Assembly (NCBI GenBank): GCA_030390025.1
Contig: CM059432.1
Span: 53,818,001-53,882,000 of the forward strand
DNA: 64,000 nucleotides
DNA from: Squalus acanthias
Lineage: Eukaryota
Reading direction: 5' to 3'
Below, in pieces: positions 416-63,525 of this stretch (positions are counted from its first letter, which is position 1; each line of letters begins with the position of its first letter). The notes below the pieces were generated by a model. The model was not told the DNA's origin. It worked only from the letters and a program-made list of their open reading frames with translations, and made no database searches. Both the position numbers and the translations under genes were made by a program.

Positions 416-1171
416 GGGCTGGAAATTGTGGTTGGAGGCTTCCCGCGGGCGAATGCCTCTGATCTGCAAGAAAAGTACGCACCTACCTGGCGCCTCCATA
501 CCTTCGAACTCTTGCGGTCCTGGGCCTGCAGGCATACGCCTGCGTAAAGGATTGTGTATTCCAGGTGTGCAGGCAGTTCGTAAACATCCTGAGATCAAGT
601 GGGCCAGCCCAACCAATCACAAAAGGGGATTCCCATTATGCTTATGGGGATTCCTTTCATGTATGGAATCCCCATAAGCTGAATAGGAATCACCCAAAAA
701 AACACACTTTCACCCCACTTAAATAAAAATAAATCATGTGTTAAAAATTAATGAAAATACAATTTAACTAAACATTTAAAACAAAAATTTAATTTTTTGA
801 AAAATAAATGTAAACATTTTTAAAGGGGCCAAAAATAACCTAAACTAATTTTAAAGGTTTTTGAATGTTTAAATCATTTTTAAAAATTATTTAAATATTT
901 ATTTAAACCCTTACACTGGTAAAAGAAGGCCTTATGCCTGCTTTTACCAGGCGTAAGAGTTTTGTGGGCATTTGCTGGGCAGTAGTTGGGGAAATAGCCC
1001 AACCCTTCACCAGCAAATGTCCATTTCCTGCGCATTCATACGATCTGTCAAGAAGAATCTTGACAGATCTCAAGTTCCGGGTTTTAGTTCATGCGCAGCC
1101 CATGCCAAAACCTGAACTTGCGGGGCACTTATGGCCACGTACACCGTCCTAGGCCCGGGAAAATCCGGGCC
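416..1171. mobile_element. Non-autonomous Harbinger-like TIR element, 756 bp, multi-hairpin with AT-rich core
   Basis: Ends GGGCTGGAAATT / AAAATCCGGGCC; CTT on both sides (413-415, 1172-1174); internal stems 640-654/665-679, 1042-1053/1058-1069, 1071-1085/1107-1120. Confidence 0.8.
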
Positions 1172-1804
1172 CTTGTTTTTCTCAAATATGCAGCAAGGTA
1201 TCTTTCATCTTTCATTCAACACCATTTTAAAAAAGCTAGCACATTATTATATAAGAAGAATAAATTTGTATTAGATGTGCTATTTATGCTTTTGTATGGT
1301 GTGTCTGCAGTTTTTTTTCTTTAGGTCAAATCAAGTCATTTTCTAGTTTGTTAAAATTTTGAGTCTCTTAAAATCATTTCCCCACAGAGTAATAGATGTG
1401 GAGAGTAAAATACCAAAATATAGTGAATCCAAAGGCAGAACAATGGAAATAACAATATACATGTGCAAAGTGAAGTTTGTTCCTTTGTGCATGTGTCTCA
1501 CCAGGTTTTGAAGGTACTAAACCCAAATTAGTGTGAACTTGCCACAATTCAAAATTGACATTGCTTTTTCCTCTTAGCCTTAGTCAACACAACTCATGCA
1601 CGTCATCTTCCATTCACACCCTAATTCACTTTATACAAGACTAAAAGTGGTGGTTGTTGACAAAATTTCAAAACTAGCTTTGCATAGTGGACTGTTATGC
1701 TTATCATATGTTTATTTCAGCTGATTAATATGGCCTCAATCTTGGCATGTTGACTTCTACTGGCACTTCAATCCCCTGCAAAGGAAATATATCATAATGT
1801 TTAC

Positions 1805-8206: not shown

Positions 8207-8519
8207 ATGCACAAGGGCTGCACATGGGTGCGTTATAAAATGTTAGCGGGTTAAGTTTCTGTTGAAGTTATGAGCCACATAAATTTATTTCTTTGCACCA
8301 CTTTCCCATCTTGTCCATTTTTGCCTGCTACCTTGAAAGTGGCCTTGTCAGTAGAAGTGAATGGTAAGACATTACTTAACCTCGAGCAATGGGTGTGTGT
8401 GTGACAGGAATGGTTTGGTCATTTTAGGACTGCTTTGTGGTGGTGGTGGGGTAGTGGGGGGCGGGTGGGGGGGGAGTTGGTTCAGCATCTGGGTGCCATA
8501 TGAGTGCACTGGTGCAACA

Positions 8520-9554
8520 TAACTAAATCGTACCATTATGAGGCCATCCTGGGCAGCAATATGCGCCGCTGCTGGTACCATGTCCACTTCAGGTTCCTCC
8601 TCCTCCTCATGTTGCTCCTGCTCCTCCTCCTCCTCCTCCTCAACCTCCTCCTCCGAAGAGGCTGTGTGCTCTGCGCCTTGCTCATCCTGCAGCTCCAATC
8701 CTAGCTGCTGCACTATGTTGTGCAGAGCGCAGCAAACGACGATCATTCTGGAGACCCTCGCTGGTGCGTACTGAAGGGCTCCTCCAGATCTGTCCAGCCA
8801 TCTGAAGCGCATCTTCAGCATCCTGATTGCTTGCTCTATGACAGATCTTGTCGTCCTCTGGCTTTGATTGTAGCGCTCTTTGGCCTCATTGCTTGGCCTC
8901 CTCAAGGGTATCATGAGCCACATCTTCAGTAGATACCCCTTGTCTCCAAGCAGCCAGCCGGTAAGCCTGGTTAGAGGTGTGAAGAGCTGAGGGAGGGTGA
9001 ACTGGCGCAGGATGAATGAGTCATGACAGCTCCCTGGGAATCTGGCACAGATGATGATCTTTTTATGGTTGCAGACGAGCTGCACATTGAGGGAGTGGAA
9101 GTCCTTACGGTTCACAAACACTCCTGGGTGATCTGGGGACGCCTTGATGGCCACAGTCGATGATGCCCTGCACCTGTGGGAAGCCAGCCAGAGCCACAAA
9201 GCTGAGCATACGCTGTCTGATTGGCTTCATCAGTGGCCAAGTGTACGTAAGTGCCTGACTTGTCAAACATGACATGGTCACCTGGGTAATGCATTTGTGG
9301 GTGGCCGATGGCAAGATCCTGCAAATGTCTCCTGCAGATCCCTGTTCAGTCAAGTCCAGAAAGCTGATCCTCTGCCTACATACGCTGTGTTGGGGGTATC
9401 GCCTTCTGCAAGGTGCACCCTTGTGCTCATCCCCTCTCTCCTGTGGAGTGGCAGGTCGGTGAGGAGAAGGCTGCTGCTGCTGGTGCTGGTGCTGCTGGGG
9501 CACATCTTGGACTGAATCTGTGGTCCAAGGTGAAACCGCCTAAGTGGCACCCAT
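8520..9554 (-). pseudogene. HARBI1-like DDE transposase (frameshifted)
   Basis: [68 protein letters not shown] and a poly-Glu tail; the track ORF reads on to 8372. Confidence 0.92.
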
Positions 9555-16428: not shown

Positions 16429-17171
16429 GGGCCAAAAATTCATCCCGCGACGCGAGAGTACGCACTGCGTACTCTCGCGTATTCTCACTCCAATTGCCGG
16501 TTTTCTGCATGCCCTGCGCATGCGCTGAAAACCGGCACTTGGTCTTTTGAAAAGGGGGCGGTTCCTCGGTGCATCGCGTGCGCGCTACAGGCTGCGCGCA
16601 CGCTGTGCACTTCGTGCTTTGGACGCGCAGGTAAGTACGGAAGATTTTAGAAATGGAAAAAGGAGGAGTAAGACCCACTTTTAACAAGGTAAGTAGTGAA
16701 TAAAGTATTTTTTTGAATTTTTTTTAACAGGTATATCTTTTTTAGAGACTTTAAAGACAGGTAAGTTTAGTTTATAACTTTTTAAAAGATTTTAAATTTT
16801 TTCAAAAATTTAATTTTTTATTTAAAATGGTTAATTTATTTAACTATACTTATTTTATTAATGTGATGGTTTTTTTTTTAAATTTAATTGAGGTTTAGCT
16901 GTTATTTTGGGGGGGTGTAAGATTCATAGATTTCACAGCACGTATGTGAAACTTATGAATGGAAGATGGCGTGCTGCCATTGGCTCTAACTGAGTCACGT
17001 GATCCCACAGCTCGCACAAATTCACTACGCCGGTGGGATACGCAAGCACTGCCCAGCTGATGTCTGGAACATCAAGTTCGTGCGAGCTGGATCTGAAAAA
17101 GCACACGCGGAGTGAGAGATCGCGGGGAAGCCTTACCCCCGCGGGAACAGAGCGAGATCAATTTCTGGGCC
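16429..17171. mobile_element. ~743-bp structured TIR element, copy 1
   Basis: GGGCCAAAAATT / AATTTCTGGGCC; ATA TSD; near-identical reverse complement of 23240-23984 and 26932-27673. Confidence 0.9.
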
Positions 17172-17465: not shown

Positions 17466-18277
17466 GGGCAGAATTTTCATTGACCCGTGGAGGCAGGTTT
17501 GGAGGCGTGTGGGGGGTTAAAATAGCAGATTCGGGGGTCCCGAACCCATCCCGCCCCCAACCCGCCTCCATGCCAGTTTCACAGGAGGCGGGTACCCAAC
17601 CTGTGCTGGGACCCGCCTCCCTGAGGCGGGGAGGGGATTAGTGCCAATAAACTGCCTGTTAACAGGTAGTTAACAGGCAGTTTTTTGCCTAATCCCTATT
17701 TTTAGCCCTGAAGTGTGGGTTTCCCGACAGGTCCGAACCACGTCGATTTAGCAAGGCAGACCGTCGGTCTGGAGGGCTTGGAGGGGTCGAGATGTCCGGT
17801 GTGCAGGTGAGTGATGGGTGCATGAGTGCAGAGGTAAGTGTGTTTGGTGTGTGTAAAGTGTTTTAAGAACTTGTACTTACCTTAACTTTGTCCTGCAGGC
17901 TTCCTTCCTTCAGTTCTCAGGAGTCCCTCAGCTCACCGGCACAGAAAGCAGAATGGCCGCGGAGCTGTCAAAAGCTGCAGTCTCTGCTTTCTGTGCTGGA
18001 TTGATTTCTAACTGAGTCTAAGTAAGGAGACTCATGTTAGAAATCATATTGTCAGTGTTTGACAGCTTCACAGAGCTGTCAAACGCTGAAATTTCATCTG
18101 TCAAAAGCTCTTGACAGATGAAATTTCAATGGCTGACGTCACCTGTATCCAAGGGACCCTTGATTGGCCTGCTAAGCCCACTGGGCGGGCTTAACAAGGT
18201 CAATCAAGGGAAAATACAGTGGGTTGGCCACAAGTCGATGGAGGCGGGACTACAACCCCATTGACAAAATCCAGCCC
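17466..18277. mobile_element. Non-autonomous Harbinger-like TIR element, ~810 bp
   Basis: GGGCAGAATTTT / AAAATCCAGCCC; homologous to 18472-19317; flanks do not match (TTA/GAA). Confidence 0.78.
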
Positions 18278-19996: not shown

Positions 19997-20168
19997 GGAA
20001 GTGAATTTCTGTGACGTTATCCCATTTGTCCGATGTAACTTCGCTGGAAGACTCGCAGAAACCCCGGAGAAATGGCGTACATAGCATTTACCATTTTTCC
20101 AGGGTTTCCACGCTTTTCCAGTGAAGTTACGTTGGACTAGTGGGAGAACCCTGCAGAAATTCACCCCC
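19997..20168. mobile_element. Short fold-back MITE (~170 bp)
   Basis: GTGAATTTCTG..TAACTTCGCTGGAA / TTCCAGTGAAGTTA..CAGAAATTCACCCCC; related copy at 54598-54762. Confidence 0.7.
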
Positions 20169-23239: not shown

Positions 23240-23984
23240 GGCCCAGAAATTGATCTCGCTCTGTTCCCGCGGGGGTAAGGCTTCCCCACGATCTCTCACC
23301 TCGCTTGTGCTTTTTCAGATCCAGCTCGCACGAACTTGATGTTCTAGACATCAGCTGGGCAGTGCTTGCGTATCCCAGCGGCGTAGTGAATTCGTGCGAG
23401 CTGTGGGATCACGTGACTCAGTTAGAGCCAATGGCAGCACACCATCTTCCATTCATAAGTTTCACAGCACGGCTGTGAAATCTATGAATCTTACACCCCC
23501 CCAAAATAACAGCTAAACCTCAATTAAATTAAAAAAAAAAACCCATCACATTAATAAAATAAATATAGTTAATTAAATTAACCATTTTAAATAAAAAATT
23601 AAATTTTTGAAAAAATTTAAAATCTTTTAAAAAGTTATAAAAATAAACTTACCTGTCTTTAAAGTCTCTAAAAAAGATATACCTGTTAAAAAAAATTCAA
23701 AAAAATACTTAATTCACTACTTACCTTCTTAAAAGTGGGTCTTACTCCTCCTTTTTACATTTCCAAAATCTTCCGTACTTACCTGCGCGTCCAAAGCATG
23801 AAGTGCACAGCGTGCGCGCAGCCTGTAGCGCGCACGCGATGCACCGAGGACCCGCCCCCTTTTCAGAAGAGCAATTGCCGGTTTTCAGCGCATGCGCAGG
23901 GCATGCAGAAAACCGGCAATTGGAGTGGGAATACGCGAGAGTACGCAGTGCGTACTCTCGCGTCCCGGGATCAATTTTCGGCCC
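23240..23984. mobile_element. ~743-bp structured TIR element, copy 2
   Basis: GGCCCAGAAATT / AATTTTCGGCCC; flanks AAT/ATT (imperfect TSD). Confidence 0.88.
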
Positions 23985-26931: not shown

Positions 26932-27673
26932 GGCCCAGAAATTGATCTCGCTCTGTTCCCGCGGGGGTAAGGAGCAGGCACGATCTCTCACTCCGCGTTG
27001 GCTTTTTCAGATCCAGCTCGCACGAACTTGATGTTCTAGACATCAGCTGGGCAGTGCTTGCGTATCCCACCGGCGTAGTGAATTCGTGCGAGCTGTGGGA
27101 TCACGTGACTCAGTTAGAGCCAATGGCAGCACACCATCTTCCATTCATAAGTTTCACATACGTGCGGTGAAAGCTATGAATCTTACACACCCCCAAAATA
27201 ACAGCTAAACCTCAATTAAATTTAAAAAAAAACATCACATTAATAAAATAAGTATAGTTAAATAAATTAACCATTTTAAATAAAAAATTAAATTTTTGAA
27301 AAAATTTAAAATCTTTTAAAAACTTATAAAAATAAACTTACCTGTCTTTAAAGTCTCTAAAAAAGATATACCTGTTAAAAAAAATTCAAAATAATACTTA
27401 ATTCACTACTTACCTTGTTAAAAGTGGGTCTTACTCCTCCTTTTTTCGTTTCTAAAATCTTCCGTCCTTACCTGCGCGTCCAAAGCACTAAGTGCACAGC
27501 GTGCGCGCAGCCTGTAGCGCGCACGCGGTGCACCGAGGAACCGCCCCCTTTTCCAAAGACCAAGTGCCGGTTTTCAGCGCATGCGCAGTGCATGCAGAAA
27601 ACCGGCAATTGGAGAGAGAATACGCGAGAGTACGCAGTGCGTACTCTCGCGCAGCGGGATCAATTTTTGGCCC
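26932..27673. mobile_element. ~743-bp structured TIR element, copy 3
   Basis: GGCCCAGAAATT / AATTTTTGGCCC; ATC TSD (26929-26931, 27674-27676). Confidence 0.9.
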
Positions 27674-30550: not shown

Positions 30551-32736
30551 GGCCTAGAAATTCGTGTTCGCCACGAAAGTTGTTGGTGTCACCGGCAACT
30601 GGAGTTAACAGCCGCTGAAAATGGCTGCAATGCTAAGGAGAATAAATTCATCTGTGGGGCTGGAGATTGGTGGCGCAGCACTAACCTTCCATGTAACGCC
30701 CTCCTGGTGGCATTAGTGGAGGCCTCCGAGGCGAAGTTCCCATCCTGAAGTGACGTTTGAGCTTCGCACAGCCTCTGGGAGTGAGGCTGTGGAGCTCGCA
30801 AGGAATTGTGGGAAATTAAAAGGGCTGTGAATTAAAGGGGCAATGCGCGCAAAACTAATACAAATTAAAATGCAGTGAAAAAATGCAGTTTTCAGCCCTT
30901 ACTGCGTTTCAAAAAAAATTAACATTAATAAGAAGACCCAAATGTGATTATTCAGCTCTTGAAGCTAAATTCCCTTCCGAACCTCAAAAATGTGAAAACT
31001 TCTTCACCACTAACACAAATGGCTCAGCAAGCCAGGGAAGGGGCACCCAGGGTCTCGCACGCAGCACTCCAACTTTGTGCAGGGGTTCAACACTGCAAGA
31101 CAGGTCATCTACACAAAGGGGCCAGGAGGCCCTCCAGAAAGAAGGATGTGGGACAACATCACCGAGGCCGCCACTGCCAGCAGTCCACCCGCACCACCCC
31201 GCCACCCACCTCCCCCCCACCCACCCCCCCCCCCCACACCCCCCCACCCCACCACCTGGCTCCAGTGCCCAAAGAAGCTTCATGACCTCAAACCAGTGGT
31301 CCAGGTCAGTGAATGCATCTTCAAAAGCCATCTCCTGCCAACTGCACCACTAAGCTCACACACTGCTCAATGCACGATTCCCACCCCCAATCACTCACCT
31401 ACCAACAATCTGAAACAATCATGAGGCACATCTCCCATTCCTAGCCTCACCTCACCCCCTTGGAGGAGACGGTGCAGGCCATTCTTGGCATGGGCATGGC
31501 TGAGCCCTTGGCCAGTGGCGGGGCTGAAAGGATACAAGATACGGGTATCCTCATACGTTATCCTCCTTCTGGCATGACTTGCTTTCCCGCCCTCCCCTCA
31601 CCACAACCCTACCCTTGTGCCTTCCTCATTTCACACACCCAAGAAATGCAGCCTGCCCAGCCAGTGGTTGACCAAGAAGAGAGACAGGAGAGTGAAGAAG
31701 AAGAAGAAGAAGAAGAAACACCATCACTCGGTTTGACACTCCCAGCCACCAGCTCTCAAGGTCGACCAGCAGGGCCATTTGCAGTGTCCCCCACTGAAAG
31801 TCAGCAGCTTTCCACCAGCCATGCTGCAGCTACTGGGGTAGAACTGTGTGATATCAGTAGGACAGGCAAAGGCACACACAAGACAGTCACTAAGAGAATG
31901 CATAAGGGTGATGAGTTGATTTCTTGATGTCATATTGGATGAACAGATGTATAAAGTTGGATTGGAATGCTTGCTTTGTGGTGCCTTTTATTTTAGCATC
32001 GTGGCCAAGAGGATGCTGTGATGGTCAGTAACAGAGGGAAGGTAAGGTGTGGGGCTAATGTTGAAAGGGGAATTGGGGTTGTGGTCACTGGTACCACAAG
32101 CGAATGATTCCGTCCTGGATATCCCAGCCAGGAAGGGACTGTCTGGGTTGCATCTTTCCTTCTGCTTCTTCCTCTTCTGCTTCTTCCTCTTCCCTCTGCG
32201 AGCGGATGCTGCAAATCTGAAATGACAGCATAAAATGCTGGAAATACTCAGCAGCTCAGGCAGCATCTCAGCTTGAGGCATGAACTCTGTTTCTTCCTCC
32301 ATGGATGTTGCCTGACCTGCTGAGTATTTTGCAGCATTTTCTGTCTTCTCAGAGGCCTTCCTTTACAATCCGAGGCCTTGCAAGCATCCAGCGGCACTCC
32401 CTACACACTTAAAAAGTTTTAAAATCTATTGCAGCAAGCCACTATTTCAATAAAATCAAAAAAAACCAGTCCAAAAGCTTAAATGCAAACTTACCTGAAA
32501 GATGTGTGTGTCCCTTTAAAAGGTGCTGACTTCACCACTGTCAGCCTGCTTGCATGCCAGCATGCTTAGGACCAAGCGCTGAATTCACCACTAGGGTTGA
32601 AGTTTGGTGTGGTGACGTTAAGTCGGCGTTGCATGCCAATTAACATCACCATGCTGCCATTTTTTTCCAGGGCGGCCGCCATTTTTCACCATTCATGGCG
32701 CTACGGAGTGGTGGTAAGTAGATGAATTTCTAGCCC
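30551..32736. mobile_element. Internally deleted Harbinger (family B-like) with Myb gene remnant
   Basis: TIR GGCCTAGAAATTC / GAATTTCTAGCCC; MAQQAREGAPRVSHAAL at 31019; KKLHDL..Q|GTCAGT; acidic exon 3; TSD not matched. Confidence 0.75.
32203..32345. mobile_element. Penelope-like fold-back remnant
   Basis: Same inverted-repeat arms as 20422-20850 (AAAATGCTGGAAATACTCAGCAG / CTGCTGAGTATTTTGCAGCATTTT). Confidence 0.7.
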
Positions 32737-34859: not shown

Positions 34860-35930
34860 ATTTCTGAGTTGCACAGGCGAGGACCAAGATGACCAGCAGC
34901 ACCACCAGGAGCAGCAGTACCAGCAACAGCACCAGCAGCAACAGGACCAGCCTGCTGCTCACAGGCCTGCAGCTCCACAGGAGAGAGGGGATCAGCGGAG
35001 AGGTGCAGCTCGCAGGAGGCCATACTTGGCACACAGGGTCTACAGGCAGAGGATAACCTTCCTCAACATGTCAGAACACCAAGTGTCGCAGGAGGTTCAG
35101 GGTGTCACGTGAGGAGGTGGCAGACATTTGCAGCCTGCTGGAACAAGAGCTGCTGCCAACTATACTTGGTGGCCACGCTTTACCAGTGGCTGTCAAAGTC
35201 ACCACCGCCCTCAACACTTTTGCTTCTAGATCCTTCCAGGGCTCTGCTGGAGCATTTTCAGGATCTCACAGTCGGTGCCACACAAATGCATAAGTTAGGT
35301 GATTGATAGCTTGTTTACCAGGGCTGCCAATCATGTCAACTTTGCCTGCGATGATGCCTGTCAGTGTGAGCGGATGCTCAGGTTTGAGGCTCTGGCTGAC
35401 TTCCCACGGGTGCAGGGCGTCATCGCCTGCACACATGTGGCAATTAAGGCACCCCCAGGTCACCCAGGAGTATTCATCACCCGTAAGGGCTTCCACTCCA
35501 TCAATGTGCAGCTGGTGTGCAACCACAAAAAGATCTTTATGCAGGTGTGTGCAAGATTCCTGGGCAGCTGCCATGATGTTTTCGTCCTGCCCACCTTCCC
35601 TGATCTCTTCACACCTCGAAGTAGAGTTACTGGCTGGCTGCTCGGCATCAAGGGACACCCACTTAAAACATGGCTGATGACACCTCCCAGAAACCTGAGG
35701 AATGAAGCCTAGGAGCAATACAATGAATGCCATATGATTACCAGGCATGCTTCAGGTGCCTGGGCAGATCTGGGGGCACCTTTCAGTGCACACCAGCCAG
35801 GGTCTCCAGAATGGTCCTGCTGAAGATGCGCTCTGCACAACATTGTGCAGCAGCGAGGTTTGGACCTGCAGGAGGAACAAGGAGGAACAAGGCTGCCCAG
35901 GATGCCCTCATTATTCTGAGGTTCACTTAG
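34860..35930 (+). pseudogene. HARBI1-like transposase remnant
   Basis: ALPVAVKVTTALNTFA, DFPRVQGVIACTHVAIK, RKGFHSINVQLVC, GSCHD, WLLGIKGHPL; multiple frameshifts. Confidence 0.88.
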
Positions 35931-41170: not shown

Positions 41171-43013
41171 GCCCTAGAAATTGGATATGGCCCAAAAACG
41201 GATGGTGTCATGACCCAGTGCTATTTGACTGCGCCTGTTCAAAGTGGTCCAGGCAGCACGCAAAATTCATGCTGCCTGCTCATTTGTTCATTTACATAAT
41301 TGTTGTGCTGACCGCAGTGCTAAATGCGCTGCTGATCGGCTTACCACTCAAAAGGTGGCCCACTATCGAGTGCAGTAATGTTTGGCCTAGTCTTTCTCCA
41401 CTACTTAAACGGGAGGTGCTTTGATGCAGCAGCACCTCATTGTCATTGGAGTTGGAGCTGGAATTACAGTTGGAATGCATGGCTCAGCAGCAGTAACGAG
41501 AACAAGCCAGAAGGTTCCCCGATGCAGCTCTGGAGGCATTGGTACTGGCCGTGGAGAAGAGGCGGGCTGTCCTGTTCCCGCAGGATGGCAGGAAGCCATC
41601 AGTGCATACATCGAGAAGGCTGTGGCAAGAGATAGCTGGGTACGTCATGGCCAACAGCGTCAGACCACGGACATGGATCCAGTGCCGCAAGAAGTTTAAT
41701 GATCTCACACGGCAGGTCAAGTGAGTGAAGGCTTCAGCAAATGCCATATCGCACCATCTGCACCACGAGCCTCACACACTGCTCAGTGCACCACACTCAC
41801 CTACCAATCTACCTTTCACCACTCAGACCTCACAATCATAGCTTCACTTCACCCTCACAACCGTACCACTGCTACAAAACTCACACCCACATCTCGCTCC
41901 TTCCACACGCTGCCAGCTATTCAACTATAGCAGGCACATCACTCAAACACATCTCACTGATGCACTTCCCTTTCTCTCGAAGGCCAAGGTGGCTCACAAT
42001 CGCCGCGAACAGCAGCAGACGGGAGGCGGCCAAGCCGCTTTAGAGACCTTGAGCCAACTGGAGGAGTTGGTGCTCGACATCATTGGAGGAGAAGTCACCA
42101 AGGCCGTGGCAACGGGCGAAGTTGAAGCCCTTGGGGACAATAACGGTCTGCTCATTCCTAATCCTTCTTCTCACATCCCACTTCACCCTCATCCCACAAT
42201 CTCTTCTCACTTACAAGCTGCTGATGCTGTATGCATGGATATCTTGCTTTCCCCCCTCCCAGCCCCTCACCATAACCCGACTCTTGTGCCTTTCTGCTTT
42301 CAGAAGACCAAGATCTGCCACCTGCACAGCCTGTCCCCGAAGTAATGGAGGAGAATGGAGATGAAGAAGGCAGCACACCGTCACTGCATCTGACACTCGC
42401 AGACACCAGCTCAGAAACTGGCACTGTGCGGAATGTAGAGATTAGTATAGATGTGGGATCTGCACAGGGTGAGGCACCGGGCATCAGTGGGCTCAGCAAG
42501 GCCAGGGGGAAAGGGTAGCTCGGGGGCCAGCTCCCCAGAGGGCGAGATTGGCGCATGGGTTCTGTTGCATAGGACTCAGATGATGACCTCAATGGGGCGG
42601 CCTTCAGAAGAAGGGTGATGGCTATGTACACCGAAATGCGAGGTGCAATGGGAAGCCTGCCAGAGAGCCTCTTGGCAATGTCAAGGAGCATGGAGGAGTC
42701 TGACTCCAACATTGGACGGGGCTTTGCGCTGAGCTTGGAGCCCATGATTTCCAGGCTGGAAATGATGGACAACTCCAGGCGAGACCTTGTGGACCCAGCC
42801 AGGATGCTGCGTCTGATGGGCGATGTCACAGCTTCCATTGCAACACAGGTGGAAGCAACCCAATGTCTCAGTGTTGCAGTGGAAGCACAGACTGCTCTCC
42901 TGCAGGCTCAGCTTGCTGCTACCCAAGCTCAGACTGCTGCCCTCGTGGCTGGGTTTACGAGTGTTGAAAGGGATTTCAGGGTGTCACAGCAGGCCAGCAT
43001 CTGTCCTCCAACA

Positions 43014-43603: not shown

Positions 43604-44523
43604 ATGCGGAGATGCCGGTGTTGGACTGGGGTGGACAAAAGTGAGAAGTCGCACAACACCAGGTTATAGTCCAACAGTTTTATTTGAAATCACAAGCTTT
43701 CGGAGCTACTGCCCCTTCGTCAGGTGAAGTGAAGGAATACGAATCGGCAAAGCATATATAGACAGAGAACAATGCCTGTGTAGCGTACAATGGCAGACGA
43801 CTACAGTTAATCTTGCTGACTGCCTTTTATCACACCTTGGCAGAGAAACAATCAGGTCAGGAAGGCATTATATCAAAGACATAGCAAGATACAGCTAAGA
43901 CAATAAGGTGGGGTTACAGGGGGTCTAATGTGTCAAATGCAGTCTGTAAAAAAACCATAAACTTTAAAATTTTTACTTTTTTTTAACTGGAAATCACATC
44001 TGTGAACAAGCCAACGACGACTCGAGTCTGGATGACTCTACGTCATGTAGCGTGACATGAACCCAAGATCCCGGTTGAGGCCGTCCTCATGGGTGCGGAA
44101 CTTGGCTATCAGTTTCTGCTCGATGATTTTGCGTTGTCGTGTGTCTCGAAGGCCGCCTTGGAGAACGCTTACCCGCAGATCCGAGGCTGAATGTCCTTGA
44201 TTGCTGAAGTGTTCCCCGACTGGGAGGTAACAATCCTGCCTGGCGATTGTTGCGCGGTGTCCGTTCATACGTTGTCTCAGTGTCTGCATGGTCTCGCCGA
44301 TGTACCATGCTCCGGTGCATCCTTTCCTGCAACGTATGAGGTAGACAACGTTGGCCGAGTCACATGAGTATGTACCATGTACCTGGTGGGTGGTGTCCTC
44401 ACGTGTGATGATGGTATCTGTGTTGATGATCTGGCATGTCTTGCAGAGGTTGCCGTGGCAGGGTTGTGTGGTGTCGTGGTCGCTGTTCTCCTGAAAGCTG
44501 GGTAATTTGCTGCGAACGATGGT
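43604..44523 (-). mobile_element. Penelope-like element 3' part (GIY-YIG endonuclease C-terminus + terminal repeat)
   Basis: Minus strand: CDSANVVYLIRCRKGCTGAWYIGETMQTLRQRMNGHR..VGEHFS..EQKLIAKF..GLNRD; hammerhead motif downstream. Confidence 0.9.
43690..43727 (-). ncRNA. Minimal type I hammerhead ribozyme motif
   Basis: Minus strand TCAC-CTGACGA-A-GGGGC-AGTA-GCTCC-GAAA-GC-T-T-GTGA: stem I TCAC/GTGA, intact core, stem II, palindromic AGCT. Confidence 0.8.
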
Positions 44524-45453
44524 ACTTTTGAGTACTTTCTGTCCTCCAACAGAATACTAAGATTTCTGAGTCGCTGCCCGGGGAAGTGGCAGTGGCTCTG
44601 TGGAGCATGAACCTGCTGTCCTCTCTCAGGATGACACCATTCGTTCTCCCACCCCTGCCACTCCGTCATTGCCCTTGCTTTTGCCTGTCAGCCAGCCAGC
44701 CTAGACTGCTGCTGCCCATGCCAAGATGGTGCAGTCTGAAGCCGATGTTCTAGGCCCAGAGCTTGTCAAGGTCATCCTCCAAGGCCATCTGCAGTCTCCT
44801 CCCCTAAAAGTCAGCAGCCTTCCACCAGCCATGCTGCAGCCACTGGGGTAGCACTGCATAGGAGCACTAGGACAGGCAAAAGCACACGGAAGACAGGCAC
44901 TAAGGGAATACACAAGGGTGATTCGTTTAATTTTGTTTGCAATATGGCATGCTTTAATTTATAAATTTGGTTTGGAATGTGTAATTTGTGTTGGCTTTCA
45001 TTTTTGCATTGTGGCCAAGATGAAGATGTGATGGTCAGTGACAGAGGGAAAGTAAGGAGTGTGAGACTGTTGGTCAATGGGGAATTGGGGTTGGGGTTAC
45101 TGGTATTGCACTTCAATTAGTTCTTCACATGCAGCCCAGATGGAAAGGGGCTGGCTAGGTTGCAGCCTCCCATCCTCTTCCTCTTCTTCTGCCTCCTCCT
45201 CTTCCTCCTCCTCCTCGTGCTCCTGCTCCTCAGCTTCTCTCCTGATAAGTGGTGGCAAGGGCTGTTCCCTCATGATGGCAAGGTTGTGCAGCATGAAGCA
45301 TAGTACCACAAATCTTGAGACCCGCTCAGCCGTGTACTGCAGGGCTCCTCCAGTGTGGTTCAGGCAGCGGAATCGTTGCTTCAGCACACCAATGGTCTGC
45401 TCTATAATATTTCTTGTGGCAGCATGGCTCTCATGTGTGCATGGGTTGTGAAC

Positions 45454-47957
45454 ATAAGAACATAAGAACATAAGAAATAGGAGCAGGAATAGGCCACTTG
45501 GCCCCTCGAGCCTGCTCCACCATTCAATAAGACCATGGCTGATCTTGGGCTCAAAGCCACTTCCCCACCCGCTCCCCATAACTATTCACTCCCTTATCTT
45601 GCAAACATTTGTCTATCTCCACCTTAAATGTATTTAATGACCCAGCCTCCACAGCTCTTTGGGGCAGAGAATTGCACAGATTTACGACCCTCTGAGAGAA
45701 GAAATTCCTCCTCATCTCAGTTCTAAAAGGGCGACCCTTTATTCTAAAACTGTGCCCCCGCGTTCTAGATTTCCCCACGAGGGGAAACATCCTCTCTGCA
45801 TCTACCTTGGCGAGCCCCCTCAGTATCTTATATGATTCAATAAGATCACCTCTCATTCTTCTAAATTCCAATGAGTATAGGCCCAGCCTGTAAAGTTTCC
45901 AAAATTTGCAGATCCCCAAAAATCTAAGGAAAAAGGACTTTGGAACTACCCCAGAGTGATAAAAATGCATTTGGGCCTAACATAAGGAATTTAAGACCAA
46001 AACCAAGCTTTGGCATTTTAAAAGGCCCTGGGAGAAGGCAGCCCCACCCAAAACACAGAACCCATTAAAGAGACGCATAAAGATAGGAGTGCTAGGCCCA
46101 GCAAGAAACCCAAAACATGAGGACAATGCAAACTCCGATTAAACAACAGATCGACAGGACGCAAGCCATTTGACACTCAGTAAAAAGCCATTACTGTTGA
46201 CGAGGTCTTACAATGACCAGGATTTGATTTGGTTTAGCATAATTGAAGGCCCATCAAGCAGTTACAACAGTTCAGTAAGAAGAGAGTTCAGAACATTTTA
46301 ACACCAAGTTAAACCCATCAAAACTTAACAAGCCCGCAAAACCAAGACAATGGAATGAACAGGCCTCAACTGAAACCAAATCACTTCAGCACGAAACCAT
46401 TTTTAGTAAGGGGTTCTGGGAGTGAAAAGAACAAAGGAGCTGAACAAGTATGACTGGGGGGCCTAATTCCCCAAGAGGCCCTCTCTCCGGACTCTCTGAC
46501 AACACTGGCACAGCTCCCTCTCGGCTCTGTTCCAGAAGCAGCACATTCCAGGAAGACACTCGACGACCAGACCACCATCGCAATCAACTTACCTGGTTGG
46601 ATTTCGCACTGTTAAAACCCCTGTTTGGTGAGCATTATCCCTGATCTCCTGAAACCGAAACCTAGCTAGATAGTGGGATTTTTGGGAGGTATAAGGGTTT
46701 TTGTATATTGTCGTTCTCCCTCGCCTGTACCGTGTGTTCCCCAACCTGTTTAAGTGTTAAGTGTGTTTTAAGTTTGTTACCTTTTTCTTTTAATAAAATT
46801 CAAAATTCTTTCATCAGAACCTGTTGTCTACTACATCTTTATTCACAACTCCTAAATAAGTCCAAGGTCTCAACCTGGGGCGTGGGAGCGATTTGAACCG
46901 CTCACTGAGTCAGGGGTAAGGCTGACCCCTACCACCACCACCCCCTACAAGCCTGCTCAACCTTTCCTCATAAGTCAACCCCCTCATCTCTGGAATTAAC
47001 CTAGTGAATCGTCTCTAAACTGCTTCCAATGCAAGTATATCCTTCCTTAAATAAGGAGACTAAAACTGTATGCAGTACTCAAGGTGTGGTCTCACCAATA
47101 CCCTGTACAATTGTAACAGGACTTCCCTGCCTTTATACTCCAACCCCTTTGAAATAAAGGCCAACATTCCATTTGCCTTTTTGATTATTTGCTGTACCTG
47201 CATGCTAACTTTTTGTGTTTCATGTACAAGGACCCCCAGGTCCCTCTGAACTGTAGCATTTTGTAATCTCTCTCCATTTAAATAATAATTTGCTTTTTTA
47301 TTTTTCCTGCCAAAGTGTATAACCTCGCACTTTCCCACATTATACTCCATCTGCCAAATGGTTGCCCACTCAGCCTGTCTATATCCCTTTGCAGGTTCTT
47401 TGAGTCCTCTGCACAACTTGATTTCCCACCCATCTTTGTATCATCGGCAAACTTGGCTATATTACACTCGGTCCCTTCATCCAAGTCATTAATGTAGATT
47501 GTAAATAGTTGAGGTCCCAGCACCGATCCCTGTGGCACCCCACTAGTTATCGTTTGCCAGCCGGAAAATTACCCATTTATCCCGACTCTCTGCTTTCTGT
47601 TAGTTAGCCAATTCTCTATCCATGCTAATATATTACCCTTAGTTCCAGAGCTCTTATCTTATGCAGTAACCTTTTATGTGGCACCTTATCGAATGCCTTC
47701 TGGAAATCTAAATACACCACATCCACTGGTTCACCCTTATCCACCCTGCTCGTTACCTCCTCAAAAGAACTCCAGCAAGTTTGCTAAACATGATTTCCCT
47801 TTCATAAAACCATGCTGACTCTGCTTGACTGCATTATGATTTTCCAAATGCCCTGCTACTGCTTCCTTAATGAAGGACTCCAGCATTTTCCCAATGACAG
47901 ATGTTAGGCTAACTGGTCTCTAGTTTCCTACTTTCTGTCTCCCTCCTTTCTTAAATA
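45454..47957 (-). mobile_element. CR1 (5'-truncated RT region) interrupted by a solo LTR
   Basis: [24 protein letters not shown]; (TTCTTATG)n tail; GTGAAC duplicated at 45448-45453 and 47958-47963. Confidence 0.92.
45889..46949 (+). mobile_element. Solo LTR, 1061 bp
   Basis: TGTA...TACA termini; AGCC 4-bp TSD (45885-45888, 46950-46953); CR1 sequence is contiguous across it; AATAAA at ~46792. Confidence 0.85.
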
Positions 47958-57129: not shown

Positions 57130-57612
57130 ATAAGGTGCCACATAAAATGTTACTGCACAAGATAAGAGCTCACGGGGTTGGGGGTAATAGATTAGCATGG
57201 ATAGAGGATTGGCTAACTAACAGAAAACAGAGAGTTGAGATAAATGGGTCATTTTCAGGTTGGCAAACTGTAACTAATGGGATGCTACAAGAATCAGTGC
57301 TGGGGCCTCAACTATTTACAATCTATATTAATGACTTGGATGAAGGGACCGAGTGTAATGTAGCCAAATTTGCTGATGATACAAAGATAGGTGGGAAAGC
57401 AAGTTGTGAGGAGAACACAAAGAATCTGCAAAGGGATATAGATAGGTTAAGTGAGTGGACAAAAATTTGGCAGATGGACTATAATATGGGAAAATGTGAG
57501 GTTATCCACTTTGGTAGGAAGAATAAAAAAGCAAATTATTATTTAAATGGAGAGAGATTACAAAATGCTGTGGTACAGAGGGATCTGGGGGTCCTTGCAC
57601 ATGAAACACAAA

Positions 57613-58375
57613 GGCCGAGAAATTCGATTCGGAGGCTTGCCGCGGGGGTAAGGATCGCGCTCGATATCACCTACCGCGTCTGCCGTTCTTGTTTGCCCCC
57701 GCAGGAACTTCGGGTCCTGGGCCTCTCCCTAGTGCCGGCGCGCAGTGCTTGCTTGTTCCAGGGGCGCAGTTAGTGCGATGCGACCCCTGGGATCATGTGG
57801 GCCATGGCGAGCCAATGGCAGCAGACCATCTTTCATTCATAGATTTGACAGGAGACCTGTCAAATCTGTGAATTGAAATCGGCCCCAAAAGAACAGCTAA
57901 ACCTCAAATAATTTTTTAAAAAAACCATCACATTTATAAAATAACTACAGTTAAATAAATTAACCACTTTAAACAAAAATTAAAATTTTTGAAAAAATTA
58001 AAATACTTTTTAAAAGTTATAAAAATAAACTTACCTTTCTTTAAAGTCTCTAAAAAAGATAAACCTGTTGAAAAAATTTAAAATTATACTTAATTAACTA
58101 CTTACCTTGTTCAAAACGGGTCTTACGCCTCCTTTTTACTAGCGTAGAATCTTCAATACTTACCCTCGCATTGAAACCTGAAAAAAAACCTAAGTGTGCT
58201 GCATGCGCGCAGCCTCTAGTGCGAACGCGGTTCACCTAGGAACCGCCCCCTTCGCCATACCGGAAGTGCCGGTTTCCCACGCATGCGCAGTGCATGCAGG
58301 AAACCGGCACTTCGGGAATGAATACGGGTGAGTACACAGTCCGTACTCACCCGAGAACGGCCGAATTTTTGGGCC
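57613..58375. mobile_element. ~763-bp structured TIR element (divergent sister of the 743-bp family)
   Basis: GGCCGAGAAATT / AATTTTTGGGCC; flanks AAA/ATA; the CR1 frame HETQ|KVSMQVQQ is contiguous across it. Confidence 0.88.
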
Positions 58376-59191
58376 ATAAGTTAGCATGCAGGTACAGCAA
58401 GTAATTAGGAAGGCAAATGGAATGTTGGCCTTTATTGCAAGGGGGATGGAGTATAAAAGTAGGGAAGTCTTGCTACAACTGTACAGAGCGCTGGTGAGAC
58501 CACATCTGGAGTACTGCATACAGTTTTGGTCTCCTTATTTAAGGAGAGATATACTTGCATTGGAGGCAGTTCAGAGACGGTTCACTAGGTTGATTCCTGA
58601 GATGAGATGGTTGTCTTATGAAGAAAGGTTGAGCAGGTTGGGCCTATACTCATTTGGAGTTTAAAAGAATGAGAGGTGATCTTATTGAAACATATAAGAT
58701 TCTGAGGGGGCTTGACAGGGTAGATGCAGAGAGGATGTTTCCACTCGTGGGGGAATCTAGAACTAGGGGGCATAGTTTCAGAATAAGGGGTTGCCCATTT
58801 AAAATGGAGATGAGGAGGAATTTCTTCTCTCAGAGGGTCGTGAATCTTTGGAATTCTCTTCCCCAGAGAGCTGTGGAGGCTGGGTCATTGAATATATTTA
58901 AGGTGGAGATCGACAGATTTTTGAACTATAGGGGTGTCAAGGATTATGGGGAGTGGGCAGCAAAGTGGAGTTGAGGCCAAGATCAAATCATCCATGATCT
59001 TATTGAGTGGCGGAACAGGCTCGAGGGGCCAAATGACCTACTCCTGCTCCTATTTCTTATGTTCTTATGTTCTTATGACTGAGAGAAGGGCAGGAATGAC
59101 AGCTCAACATTCCTGGTTACAGGGTTTTCAGACAAAGTAGAGAGGGTGATAAAAAAGGATGGTGGGTTGCAATATTGCTTAAAGAAGCAAT

Positions 59192-62100
59192 TGTGGCGGA
59201 TCGCCACCTAAACGGGCGCAATCCACTTTTCCGTCCGTGGACAATAAATCGGGCACCTTGCCTTTAAGGCACCTTGCCTTTAAGGCAGGAGAAAAGGAGT
59301 GGGCGGGGCCTCAGAACCTTCCAGATTCTAGTGTTAGCAGCCATCTTAGCAGGCAAATGTAATAAAAAGCTTTTGTGTTCCACACATGGACTCGACTTTA
59401 ATTCGTGTTTCGCGGCAGCTACAACATTGGTGACCCCGACGCTCAGAACGTATTCTGAGCACTGCAATGGCGGACACGAACGCAGTTTCCGTGAAACTGC
59501 CGGAGTTTTGGGAAAACCAGCCCGAAGTCTGGTTCCTTCAAGCCGAGTCGCGTTTCTGGCTGCGAAACATCACCACAGATGGGACGAAATACGACTATCT
59601 CGTCACATCACTCGGTAGCTCCACAGTTACGAAGGTCTGGACAGCACTGCAGAACCCACCAGGGGAGGGCAAGTATGCACATCTTAAGGCCGCGCTCCTT
59701 AAAAAATTTACGGCCTCAGCATACCAGCGAAACTGCCACCTCCTCGACCTTCCAGGCCTCGGTGATGCCTCACCGTCAGACCTCCTCTCCCACATGCTCT
59801 CCCTCACCGATGAGAGCCCACCCGGATCCCTCTTCCGCACGCTGTTCATCCGCCAGCTCCCTCTCAGCATCCGCCCAGCGATCGTGGCGTCCGGCCTCAC
59901 GGACCTGGAAGCCCTGGCCGATGAGGCCGACAAGCTGCTGTCCGCTCACTCCAGCCGCGACGTCACTCCGGACCTGGCAGCCACTGCCCGGGCGCGCCCC
60001 TCACTGGCCACCACGCGGCCACAAGGCCCAGCCACCGGGCTCACGGGGCCTTCGCGCCCCACTAACCCGGGCCACTGCTACTACCACACACGGTTCGGCG
60101 CCAGGGCACAACGGTGCACACCTCCCTGCTCTTTCAAGTCCGCCCCCGTACCAGCCCCCGCGATGGCCGTGGGCCACGCGGGCTCCCTGCTGTACGTCAC
60201 GGATGACAAAACCGGCCGCCGGTTCCTGTGCGACACTGGAGCTCAAAACAGCATCATCCCGGCCTCCTCCCTCGACATCCAAAAGGGCAAACAAGGACCG
60301 GCGCTGGCTGCTGCTAACGGCTCGGACATCCCGACGTACGGCACCCGCACAGTCACCCTCGACCTCGCTGGTCGCCGCTACCGATGGGAGTTCATCACTG
60401 CCAAGGTGCTCTCCCCTCTCATCGGCGCAGACTTCCTGTGCGCCCACAGCCTACTTGTAGACATCCCTCGACACCGCCTCATGGACATGAACACCATGTC
60501 CCCCATCCTGGGTGCCATGGCCCCCCGTCAACCCGCCGACATGGCGTCACAGTGCCACGCCCGGGCCACGGATGACTACTCGGCACTCCTGGCCGAATTC
60601 CCGGCCCTTACCAATCAGACCTTCTCCGCGGAGGCCGCCAAACACGGGGTGGAACACTTCATCCCCACCACAGGCCCCCCAGTGTACGCCCACGCCCACA
60701 GGCTGGACCCGGCCAAACTGGAGATCGCGCGGACCGAGTTTGCCACAATGGAACAGCTCGGCATCATCCACCGCTCCAACAGTCCCTGGGCCTCCCCACT
60801 CCACATCGCCCCCAAACCAGGCGGGGATTGGCGCCCCTGCGGGGATAACCGCCGCCTCAACGACGCCACCACCCAGGATCGGTACCCCGTGCCACACATC
60901 CAGGATTTCTCGGCTAGACTGGCCGGCCGCTCAGTCTTTTCCAAGGTCGACCTGGTGCGCGGCTACCACCAAGTCCCCGTCCACCCCATGGACGTCCCCA
61001 AGACGGCAGTAATCACCCCCTTCGGCCTTTTCGAGTTCCTGCGGATGCCCTTCGGCCTCAAAAATGCGGCCCAGGCATTCCAACGGCTCATGGACTCGAT
61101 CCTTCAGGACCTGAAGTTCCTGTTCGTCTACCTGGACGACATCCTGGTAGCCAGTTCCTCCAAGCAGGAACACCTCGAACACCTTCGCATCCTGTTCGGG
61201 CGCCTCAGCGACCACGGGCTCATCCTCAGCCCAGCCAAATGCCAGTTCGGCCTGGATAAGATCGACTTCCTCGGCCACCACATCACCCATGCTGGGGCCA
61301 TTCCCCTGCCCACCAAGGTGCAGGCCGTCCAACAATTTCCCCGCCCCACCACCATCAAAGGCCTCCAGGAGTTCCTCGGGATGGTGAATTTCTACAACCG
61401 CTTCATCCCCAAAGTGGCGTCCCTCATGAGGCTCCTGTATGAAGCCCTCCGGGGCAGGAGCGGCAAGATGGCGGTTGAATGGACGGCAGACGCGTCAGCC
61501 GCCTTCGACTCCACCAAGACCGCGCTCGCCAACACCACCCTGCTCGCGCACCCATGGCCCAATGCCAGGGTAGCGCTCACCACGGACGCCTCCAACCACG
61601 CGGTCGGCGCCGTGTATGAGCAGTGGGTCGACGGCGCCTGGCAACCACTTGCCTTCTTCAGCCGCCAACTACGCCCCCCGGACGTCAAATACAGCACCTT
61701 CGACCGCGAGCTCCTCGCGCTGTTCCTGGCGGTCCGCCAGTTTCGGTTTTTGCTGGAGGGCCACCCCTTCACTGCGTTTGTCGACCACAAGCCCCTGACA
61801 TTCGCAATGGCAAAGACAACCAACCCCTTGTCCGCCAGGCAGCAGCGCCAGCTCGCGGCAGTGTCCGAGTTCACCACGGACATCCAATACGTCTCCGGCT
61901 GAGACAATGTGGTAGCCGACTGCCTCTCCCGCCCCGCCATCCACGCCACACACCTGGCAGTCGACTACGCTCAACTCGCAGCAGACCAGATCACCAACCC
62001 TGATCTGCTCTCCGCACCTACCAACCTACCAGGGCTATGCCTGGCCGACGTCGCCTGTGGCCCGACCGCAGTCACGGTCAAGTGCGACATATCCCTATGT

Positions 62101-63525
62101 CAACCTCGGCCCGTCGTCCCAGCGTCCTGGCGCCGCCGCGTATTCGAGATTCTCCACAACCTTTCCCACCCCGGCGCCCGCGCATCCATCAAATTGGTAG
62201 CCAACTGCTTTGTCTGGCGCAGCCTTCGCAAGGATGTGCGTACTTGGGCCAACTCCTGCCTAGCCTGTCCAACGGGCCAAGGTGCAGCAACACATGAAAG
62301 CACCCTCGAGGAGTTTACCGTCCCTTCACGTAGATTCGGCCACATCCACGTGGACATCGTCGGGCCCCTGCCGCCGTCGCAAGGCCACACGCAATTGCTG
62401 ACGATCGTTGACCGCACCACGCGCTGGCCCGAGGCAATTCCACTGACCTCTACCACCACCGCCGACATCGCCAGAGCCTTCGTCAGCACCTGGGTCACAC
62501 GGTTCGTCGTCCCCTCCAACATGACGTCGGACAGAGGTCCGCAATTTACCTCTGAACTCTGGACCGCCGTCGCACGCAATCTCGGGGTGACCATTCACCG
62601 CACCACAGCGTACCACACCCAAGCCAACGGACTGTGTGAGCGGTTCCACAGATCCTTGAAGGCATCTCTTCGAGCCAGCCTCCAGGACGGCGCCTGGACC
62701 GACCGACTTCCGTGGGTCCTCCTCGGCCTGCGCACCGCGGTTAAAGAAGACCTCCACGCATCGGCAGCAGAGCTCGTGTATGGTCAGCCGCTGCGCGTAC
62801 CCCGCGAGTTCCTGCCCACCGCCACGACACCCTGGTCAGCCGACCAGCAACTCCACGACTTCGCCTCACCGGCGCTGCAGTTCGCCCCAGTGCCCATTGC
62901 CCGACACGGCGAATCCACCTCACACGTCCCACTAAGCCTGCACCAGGCACGGTTCATTTTCGTCCGGCACGACGCCCACTGTGGACCCCTTCAACCCCTG
63001 TACGATGGGCCCTACAAGGAGCTACAGGCTGGGGACAAATTTTTCACCCTGCAAGTGGACGACAGGACTGAAAAAGTGTCGGTTGACCGACTCAAGCCAG
63101 CACACTCGGAGCCCGGTGAGCTGGTCCCTGTAGCTCGTCCACCGCCACGCGGCCAACCTGCCCTGAAGCCGGTTCACCCGGCTGCTCCACGCCTGGCCGT
63201 TCCACATCCGCCGGCGTCCTACAAGAGCCGCTCCGGCCGGCCCATCAGACCACCGCACCGTCTTGTCCACACCTCCTAAGCGGATTCTGTGGGGAGCTGT
63301 GTGGCGGATCGCCACCTAAACGGGCGCAATCCACTTTTCCGTCGTGGACAATAAATCGGGCACCTTGCCTTTAAGGCACCTTACCTTTAAGGCAGGAGTG
63401 GGCAGGGCCTCAGAACCTTCCAGATTCTAGTGTTAGCAGCCATCTTAGCAGGCAGATGTAATAAAAAGCTTTTGTGTTCCACACATGGACTCGGCTTTAA
63501 TTCGTGTTTCGCGGCAGCCACAACA
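59192..63525 (+). mobile_element. Ty3/Gypsy LTR retrotransposon, CsRn1-like clade, full-length provirus
   Basis: LTRs 59192-59426 and 63300-63525 (TG..CA); CAAT TSD; PBS TGGTGACCCCGACG (tRNA-Trp type) at 59428-59441. Confidence 0.96.
59467..63279 (+). pseudogene. gag-pol (Gag CHCC, PR, RT, RNase H, IN) with one premature stop
   Basis: CYYHTRFGARAQRCTPPC; FLCDTGA; YLDD; TTDAS..DHKPL; HNLSH..CLAC; D,D35E region; TGA at 61900-61902 is in frame with ORF 61909-63279. Confidence 0.93.

What the first reader, a model, noticed from the sequence alone, without database searches (positions are those of the whole stretch)
57613..58375. Compensatory base changes in three stems between sister ~750-bp families: candidate structured RNA/ssDNA element
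Seen: stem A TTTCACAGC/GCTGTGAAA (~23460) becomes TTTGACAGG/CCTGTCAAA (57844-57864); stem B TGCCGGTTTTC/GAAAACCGGCA becomes TGCCGGTTTCC/GGAAACCGGCA (58267-58309) around a retained GCATGCGCAG.GCATGCA loop; stem C CGCGAGAGTAC/GTACTCTCGCG (27623-27651) becomes CGGGTGAGTAC/GTACTCACCCG (58325-58353). Spacing, the AT core and three ACTTACC donors are retained. There is no coding potential and no visible internal similarity to the autonomous Harbingers here. Inference: the best candidate for an undescribed system, a size-constrained, structured non-coding cargo carried between Harbinger-like TIRs.
Basis: partly seen in the sequence, partly recalled or inferred. Interest (0 to 1): 0.75.

Follow-up and report, generated by a model that had tools for sequence, protein, structure and literature searches.

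The report
Harbinger mini-transposon with self-copying palindromes
This is one of tens of thousands of copies of a small non-coding cut-and-paste jumping element whose mirror-image stretches really do change in matched pairs, most likely because one arm gets copied onto the other in the DNA, not because it makes a folded RNA.

Summary
The paired changes are real: 11 of 56 pairs change on both sides across 24 subfamily representatives. The structured-RNA reading is not supported. 57613-58375 is a non-autonomous PIF/Harbinger element (one interior motif occurs 47,104 times). Its ends match 4.3-7.5-kb Myb+transposase elements elsewhere in the genome (0-4 differences in 98 bp left, 3-9 in 104 bp right), so stems B and C are ordinary transposon ends. 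Those partners carry imperfect stems. In stem A a three-base cluster jumped to match the other arm: 63 converted, 35 unconverted, 2 partial of 100. Stem C's 7-bp spacer occurs inverted. Mismatches show no G-U strand bias. These are template-switch signatures. Two things remain open: the ~380-bp interior matches none of 14 autonomous elements, which suggests an old lineage that swaps ends; and 23 of 69 target duplications are mismatched against ~6 expected, suggesting donor bases carried over. The scan reported this family and the mismatched duplications before on other DNA.

The parts
57613..58375 (+). Non-autonomous PIF/Harbinger element, subfamily B (763 bp)
   Evidence: The 40 scored genome copies are the window copy plus 39 at 95-97%, all near full length; ends defined on 30 loci; 351 exact hits of a B-specific 27-mer
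57610..57612 (.). Left target triplet AAA (right triplet ATA at 58376-58378; mismatched pair)
   Evidence: Sequence; the host LINE is continuous across the site in the copy at 47689-46952
57613..57626 (+). Left terminal inverted repeat, 14 bp, 2 mismatches to the right one
   Evidence: Sequence
57613..57710 (+). Left end shared with the Myb-gene end of the cognate autonomous lineage; holds a single stem-C-like half-site at offset 29
   Evidence: Family consensus differs by 0-4 of 98 bases from 8 autonomous-type elements; motif scan with a pattern made after the fact
57758..57816 (+). Small palindrome E, E-box (mutated in this copy) and CCAAT box; promoter-like interior (factor names recalled, untested)
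   Evidence: Conserved in subfamilies and family C; no match above shuffled controls in 14 autonomous elements
57835..57873 (.). Stem A, interior palindrome, 18-bp arms
   Evidence: 12 of 16 pairs invariant, 3 change on both sides; one-step arm copy in family A
57895..58100 (.). AT-rich core (limits approximate)
   Evidence: Conserved among subfamilies; E-box-to-donor-2 interior is 66-71% identical to family C
58029..58035 (-). Donor-like motif 1
   Evidence: one contig of another organism breaks off exactly at the homologous donor of the 23240 copy (weak)
58100..58106 (-). Donor-like motif 2
58158..58164 (-). Donor-like motif 3; also present ~200 bp inside the transposase end of some autonomous lineages and resembles the stem-C half-site
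   Evidence: Alignment with L112, L113, L124; decayed in L111, L115, L118
58201..58228 (.). Stem D (8-bp arms, decayed in this copy; limits approximate)
58263..58313 (.). Stem B, subterminal palindrome shared with autonomous elements
58325..58353 (.). Stem C: two 11-bp half-sites with a 7-bp spacer, shared with autonomous elements; likely Myb-protein sites
   Evidence: Spacer is 7 bp in 123 of 127 copies; the exact inversion of this copy's spacer occurs in another copy
58362..58375 (-). Right terminal inverted repeat (transposase-promoter end in autonomous elements)
23240..23984 (+). Sister copy, family A (AAT|ATT duplication)
26932..27673 (+). Sister copy, family A group
16429..17171 (-). Sister copy, family A group
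416..1172 (+). Older relative, family C: same size, palindromes at similar places with largely different letters

Best explanation
This is a non-autonomous PIF/Harbinger DNA transposon that shares its ends with Myb-plus-transposase elements in the same genome and is likely moved by them, and its palindromes likely change in step because one arm is copied onto the other during DNA replication or repair. Shown: termini, 3-bp target duplication, copy number, shared ends, the paired changes, one three-base jump and spacer inversions. Inferred: a mutation in one arm of a founder copy spreads, a later template switch overwrites one arm with the other, and recombination between subfamilies reshuffles arms. 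Inferred and untested: stems C and B stay conserved in sequence because they are binding sites (Myb-like protein at the half-sites, host promoter factors in stem B) on double-stranded DNA. The interior is likely a relic of an older partner's control regions kept by a long-lived non-autonomous lineage.
For: Partners: 8 of 11 fetched elements with B's left end have both ends; 5 of the 8 have reading frames of 377-420 aa from the first Met; L111 encodes Myb_DNA-bind_5 (E 4e-13) and DDE_Tnp_4 (E 4e-43) on converging strands. One-step copy: with the left arm of stem A fixed, the right arm is unconverted in 35, the exact mirror (3 changes) in 63 and partial in 2 of the first 100 of 1,999 hits (counted by hand). 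Inversions: stem C spacer pair with 5 direct differences and 0 after inversion, plus 6 further pairs closer after inversion. Arm extension up to 17 bp in one subfamily. PMC8794818 (passages) names multiple changes, stem extension and loop inversion as template-switch signatures. Shared mismatch types: 10 G.T, 7 A.C, 13 other. All 8 cognate partners have a G.G mismatch in stem C and a T.C mismatch in stem B. Four-gamete conflicts of 41-47% at all distances. PMC9710019 (passage): the zebrafish Harbinger Myb protein binds a subterminal 9-bp motif.
Against: Only one clean one-step event was counted, and it is in family A, not in the finding's copy. Stem C also shows a complete stepwise series of intermediates, which fits selection as well as copying. 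Stems change less than neighbouring ends (0.56-1.19 vs 2.1-2.75 changes per column; rough, because the tree ignores recombination), and donors are conserved (5 changes, p 0.03), so something may select on the interior. Family C keeps a long hairpin at the stem A position with different letters. The one large interior deletion tested is single-copy. No binding or transposition was tested. The parent of the interior was not found.
Confidence: 0.75

Rival explanations
1. The palindromes work as DNA structures (hairpin or cruciform) that improve excision or insertion, so pairing itself is selected in founder copies.
For: Hairpin position is kept while letters turn over between A/B and C. Subfamily B has perfect stems B and C where its partners do not. 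The tested interior deletion did not spread. Internal sequences affect mPing mobility (PMC10288884, passages).
Against: Subfamilies with G.A, T.C, T.T and G.G mismatches spread. The 7-bp spacer is fixed in length but often not self-complementary. 32 of 44 arm pairs show at most one mismatch type is not claimed; what is counted is that 27 of 56 pairs never vary, which is sequence conservation.
Confidence: 0.12
2. Both arms are sites for a dimeric Myb-like protein and drift together by two-step selection as the protein's specificity changes, without arm-to-arm copying.
For: Fixed spacer and a lone half-site at the left end. Stem C variants track autonomous lineages. Stepwise intermediates exist.
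Against: Does not explain the three-base jump in stem A, the spacer inversions or the interior stems absent from the partners. Myb N-terminal exons of A- and B-type partners are similar (84% over 87 aa), and one lineage's elements tolerate asymmetric sites.
Confidence: 0.08
3. The element carries a structured non-coding RNA that is selected for its fold.
For: Strong folding, covariation above controls, promoter-like motifs and conserved donor-like motifs; contigs from four or five guessed-RNA runs of two other organisms cover related elements.
Against: Both strands fold about equally; no G-U strand bias; loops vary and invert; best Rfam scores 27 and 23 bits against thresholds of 117 and 79; stems B and C lie in the ends of the autonomous DNA transposons; 3-bp duplications and inverted repeats show DNA-level movement.
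Confidence: 0.05

Closest known systems
Tourist-like MITEs of PIF/Harbinger, e.g. rice mPing (PMC2836001, PMC4561436, PMC10288884, PMC11254759: passages; section 7 of PMC4561436 read whole)
   Same: GG(G/C)CC termini, 3-bp duplication, no coding, two-gene partner; donor triplet bases can travel with mPing (PMC11254759).
   Different: Target AWT, not TAA/TTA; ~750 bp; interior not traceable to the sampled partners; a third of natural duplications mismatched, whereas PMC11254759 says free mPing insertions have an intact duplication.
Zebrafish Harbinger3_DR / Harbinger3N_DR (primary paper not held; seen through PMC9710019 and PMC2836001 passages)
   Same: Vertebrate Harbinger with Myb-like protein and transposase; subterminal motifs bound by the Myb-like protein.
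   Different: Binding here is untested; the motif was not compared with the published one by any search.
Template-switch mutation of hairpins (PMC8794818 passages; PMC5453318 listing only)
   Same: Multi-base one-step compensation, loop inversion, stem extension.
   Different: Described for rRNA, miRNA and human genome clusters; here in a transposon, where founder copies multiply each step into hundreds of copies.
piggyBac asymmetric duplications at non-canonical sites (PMC8717057 passages, citing Li et al. 2013)
   Same: One side keeps the element's carried bases, the other the host's.
   Different: Other superfamily; 2% of insertions there against about a quarter above background here.
Chompy crocodilian MITE-like repeats (recalled; one search gave only two passing mentions, not read)
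   Same: Recalled as hairpin-rich non-autonomous vertebrate elements.
   Different: No sequence comparison made; a lead only.

Membership tests
Non-autonomous PIF/Harbinger (Tourist-like MITE) | Short terminal inverted repeats starting GG(G/C)CC | tested here: met
   consensus from Table 1 of PMC4423477
Non-autonomous PIF/Harbinger (Tourist-like MITE) | 3-bp target-site duplication | tested here: met
   46 of 69 identical, mostly AAT or ATT; empty sites in host repeats hold one triplet. 23 of 69 mismatched.
Non-autonomous PIF/Harbinger (Tourist-like MITE) | Ends shared with an element encoding DDE transposase and Myb/SANT protein | tested here: met
Non-autonomous PIF/Harbinger (Tourist-like MITE) | No coding capacity, high copy number, uniform size | tested here: met
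   No frame of 150 aa or more inside it apart from LINE read-through; 47,104 motif hits; 65 of 89 motif-anchored places have both termini at the expected distance
Non-autonomous PIF/Harbinger (Tourist-like MITE) | Mobilised in trans by the partner's two proteins | not testable with these tools
   Needs a transposition assay
Simple internal-deletion derivative of a current autonomous element | Whole sequence aligns to the partner | tested here: inconclusive
   Bases ~100-480 score at shuffle level against 14 autonomous elements; those are a small part of 63,886 transposase candidates
Structured non-coding RNA | Covariation above controls | tested here: met
   not specific to RNA
Structured non-coding RNA | One strand favoured (G-U bias, folding asymmetry) | tested here: not met
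   10 G.T, 7 A.C, 13 other; z -9.2 and -10.1
Structured non-coding RNA | Match to a known RNA family | tested here: not met
   Two weak miRNA-hairpin hits far below threshold
Structured non-coding RNA | Discrete transcript | tested here: inconclusive
   Only unstranded contigs of guessed-RNA runs from other organisms

The most novel reading that the evidence does not exclude
A long-lived parasitic lineage: a ~750-bp non-autonomous Harbinger keeps an old, functionally constrained interior (promoter-like motifs, a self-renewing palindrome, splice donors) while repeatedly taking over the ends of whichever autonomous lineage is active, and this vertebrate Harbinger inserts piggyBac-style with carried 3-base overhangs, rewriting about a quarter of its target duplications.
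Probability: 0.4. Interest if true: 0.55.

Novelty: new member of a known kind. Interest (0 to 1): 0.3.

Why it matters
It is a clear natural case in which strong base-pair covariation arises in a DNA transposon with no sign of an RNA, a warning for covariation-based RNA discovery; founder amplification preserves each step in hundreds of copies, so template switching can be counted. The mismatched duplications, if confirmed, would show in natural vertebrate insertions that Harbinger ends carry donor bases, and would mean that tools requiring identical duplications miss many copies. Near-intact partners make all of this testable in a cell assay.

Tried and rejected
RNA evidence: no run on record as RNA holds the stretch (no RNA holder listed). 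Contigs of guessed-RNA runs showed no canonical splice joint in the element. In one search, 24 of 37 loose ends were shown: one lies exactly at donor 1 (23653), one 3 bases from it, none at donors 2 or 3; too weak to use. Rfam: nothing near threshold. Parent of the interior: an interior profile over all loci held then found no hit inside an autonomous element that I could identify. Window Harbingers as partners: rejected, other families. First extraction of copies by terminal motif alone gave wrong ends and was replaced. Family C copies were dropped from the duplication count because my end finder did not score them; the top-30 sets of A and B (14 of 29 and 13 of 30 mismatched) were kept out of the main count because the queries included flanking bases. 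Four subfamily representatives with stem deletions or high divergence were left out of alignment A2 (24 of 28). Rearrangement as the cause of mismatched duplications: rejected where testable, the flanks join up in host repeats. Literature: the primary zebrafish paper is not held; a search for its binding motif gave nothing relevant; searches listed no paper describing this family or mismatched Harbinger duplications at natural insertions (open-access library only; Repbase and Dfam could not be checked; no supplements read).

Full report
Observation. The element runs from 57613 to 58375 and interrupts a LINE whose copy at 47689-46952 is continuous across the site. Three sister copies of family A (23240, 26932, 16429) are about 78% identical over 610-640 bp, and an older relative, family C, lies at 416-1172. 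The element folds far better than shuffles on both strands (z -9.2 and -10.1). In 24 subfamily representatives, 11 of 56 chosen pairs change on both sides and 27 never vary.

What it is. The 40 scored genome matches to the finding are near full length and 95-100% identical. Ends are GGCC-type inverted repeats with 3-bp flanks, mostly AAT or ATT. An interior motif occurs 47,104 times (control 1); the finding's own subfamily has at least 351 copies. A Pfam search for the Harbinger transposase returned young elements whose transposase-side end carries stems B and C. One of them, L111 (4,719 bp), has a Myb/SANT exon and a DDE domain on converging strands (its transposase frame is broken). Twelve places share its left end. 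Of 11 fetched, 8 have both ends, differ from the family B majority by 0-4 of 98 bases left and 3-9 of 104 right, and 5 have frames of 377-420 aa. Other subfamilies pair with other autonomous lineages: c7 with L113 at both ends (94% and 92%), the A group with L117/L118 at the right end (91-97%), while A's left match is limited to about 42 bp. So stems B and C are transposon ends, not cargo. The host taxon was not tested; earlier notes call it shark-like.

The interior. Bases ~100-480 (E-box and CCAAT motifs, stem A, AT core, donors 1-2) score no better than shuffles against 14 autonomous elements, yet are 79-97% identical among A/B subfamilies and 66-71% identical to family C. Donor 3 and about 260 bp of the right end align with some autonomous lineages. 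A shared interior with lineage-specific ends suggests repeated exchange of ends; a parent that I did not sample is the alternative. Four-gamete conflicts of 41-47% at all distances fit recombination or repeated mutation.

How the arms change together. In family A, with the left arm of stem A held fixed, the right arm is the old form in 35, the exact mirror image three changes away in 63, and a partial form in 2 of the first 100 of 1,999 hits. The stem C spacer is 7 bp in 123 of 127 copies, and the finding's own spacer occurs exactly inverted in another copy. One subfamily has extended stem C to 17 bp. These are the patterns that PMC8794818 (passages) ascribes to template switching. Unpaired states are common in multi-copy subfamilies: 10 G.T, 7 A.C and 13 other types, with no strand bias. 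The cognate partners have imperfect stems B and C in 8 of 8. An 11-bp loss in the stem B loop occurs at 476 places. Against a purely neutral reading: stem C also shows a full stepwise series, stems and donor motifs change less than their surroundings, family C keeps a long hairpin at the stem A position with other letters, and the one large interior deletion that I tested is single-copy. Fixed spacing and a lone half-site 29 bp inside the left end (pattern made after the fact) fit protein-binding sites; PMC9710019 (passage) reports subterminal Myb binding for the zebrafish element. Binding is inferred.

RNA. No Rfam match nears threshold. No run on record as RNA holds the stretch. Unstranded contigs from other organisms cover related elements without a canonical joint; one breaks off exactly at donor 1. 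Expression is untested.

Side result. Among 69 full-length copies sampled without flank bias, 46 have identical triplets and 23 do not; about 6 are expected from the 1.5% divergence at A/T sites. The central base differs in 21, central A/T swaps number 10 against about 1 expected, and one side is AAT or ATT in 22. One or two cases may come from tandem duplication or abutting elements. In mismatched copies inside host repeats (18 of all sets had an empty-site match) the commonest empty-site triplet equals the left side in 6 and the right side in 4; the other 8 are tied or match neither. This fits ends that carry a 3-base donor overhang into a mismatched target. PMC4561436 (section 7) proposes staggered cuts in the duplication, PMC11254759 (passages) shows donor bases arriving with mPing at Cas9 cuts, and PMC8717057 (passages) describes the piggyBac parallel. 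Gene conversion reaching into the flank is not excluded.

Comparison and verdict. It meets the testable criteria for a non-autonomous PIF/Harbinger element and fails the strand test for a structured RNA. My searches listed no description of this family; repeat databases could not be checked. The scan had reached a similar reading on other copies; those notes are not independent support. New member of a known kind; interest 0.3, mainly for the countable template switch, the unexplained interior and the mismatched duplications.

Noticed in passing
window 59192-63525: LTR retrotransposon with 94% identical 235-bp LTRs and frames of 822 and 458 aa (Ty3/gypsy-like by recall)
   Followed up: no
window 8372-9226, 35266-35880, 45097-45585, 41515-41721: Transposase and Myb remnants of other Harbinger families, 39-54% identical to the cognate proteins
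   Followed up: partly
L094, L095, L108, L109: 2.9-3.2-kb derivatives with both ends that keep an open transposase frame but lack most of the Myb gene
   Followed up: no
L116:1312-6555 and L122:6908-7498: A MITE copy sits directly against (L116, sharing one triplet) or just inside (L122) the end of an autonomous element; such composites could be how ends are exchanged
   Followed up: partly
element positions 13-22 and the matching right-end positions: The ~10 bases just inside the inverted repeats are the most variable part (up to 9 changes per column) and often extend the repeat in a subfamily-specific way
   Followed up: no
L172:3030-5300; L147-L152: Tandem or segmentally duplicated runs of family A copies
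   Followed up: no
window 625-694, 18087-18128, 20001-20164, 32216-32353: Further long palindromes, the first being family C's counterpart of stem A
   Followed up: partly
window 44038-44556: 172-aa frame resembling a GIY-YIG nuclease of Penelope-type elements (recalled, not scanned)
   Followed up: no
runs X1-X8 (organisms A and B): Close relatives of several subfamilies occur in two other organisms, many contigs at 95-99% or more
   Followed up: no
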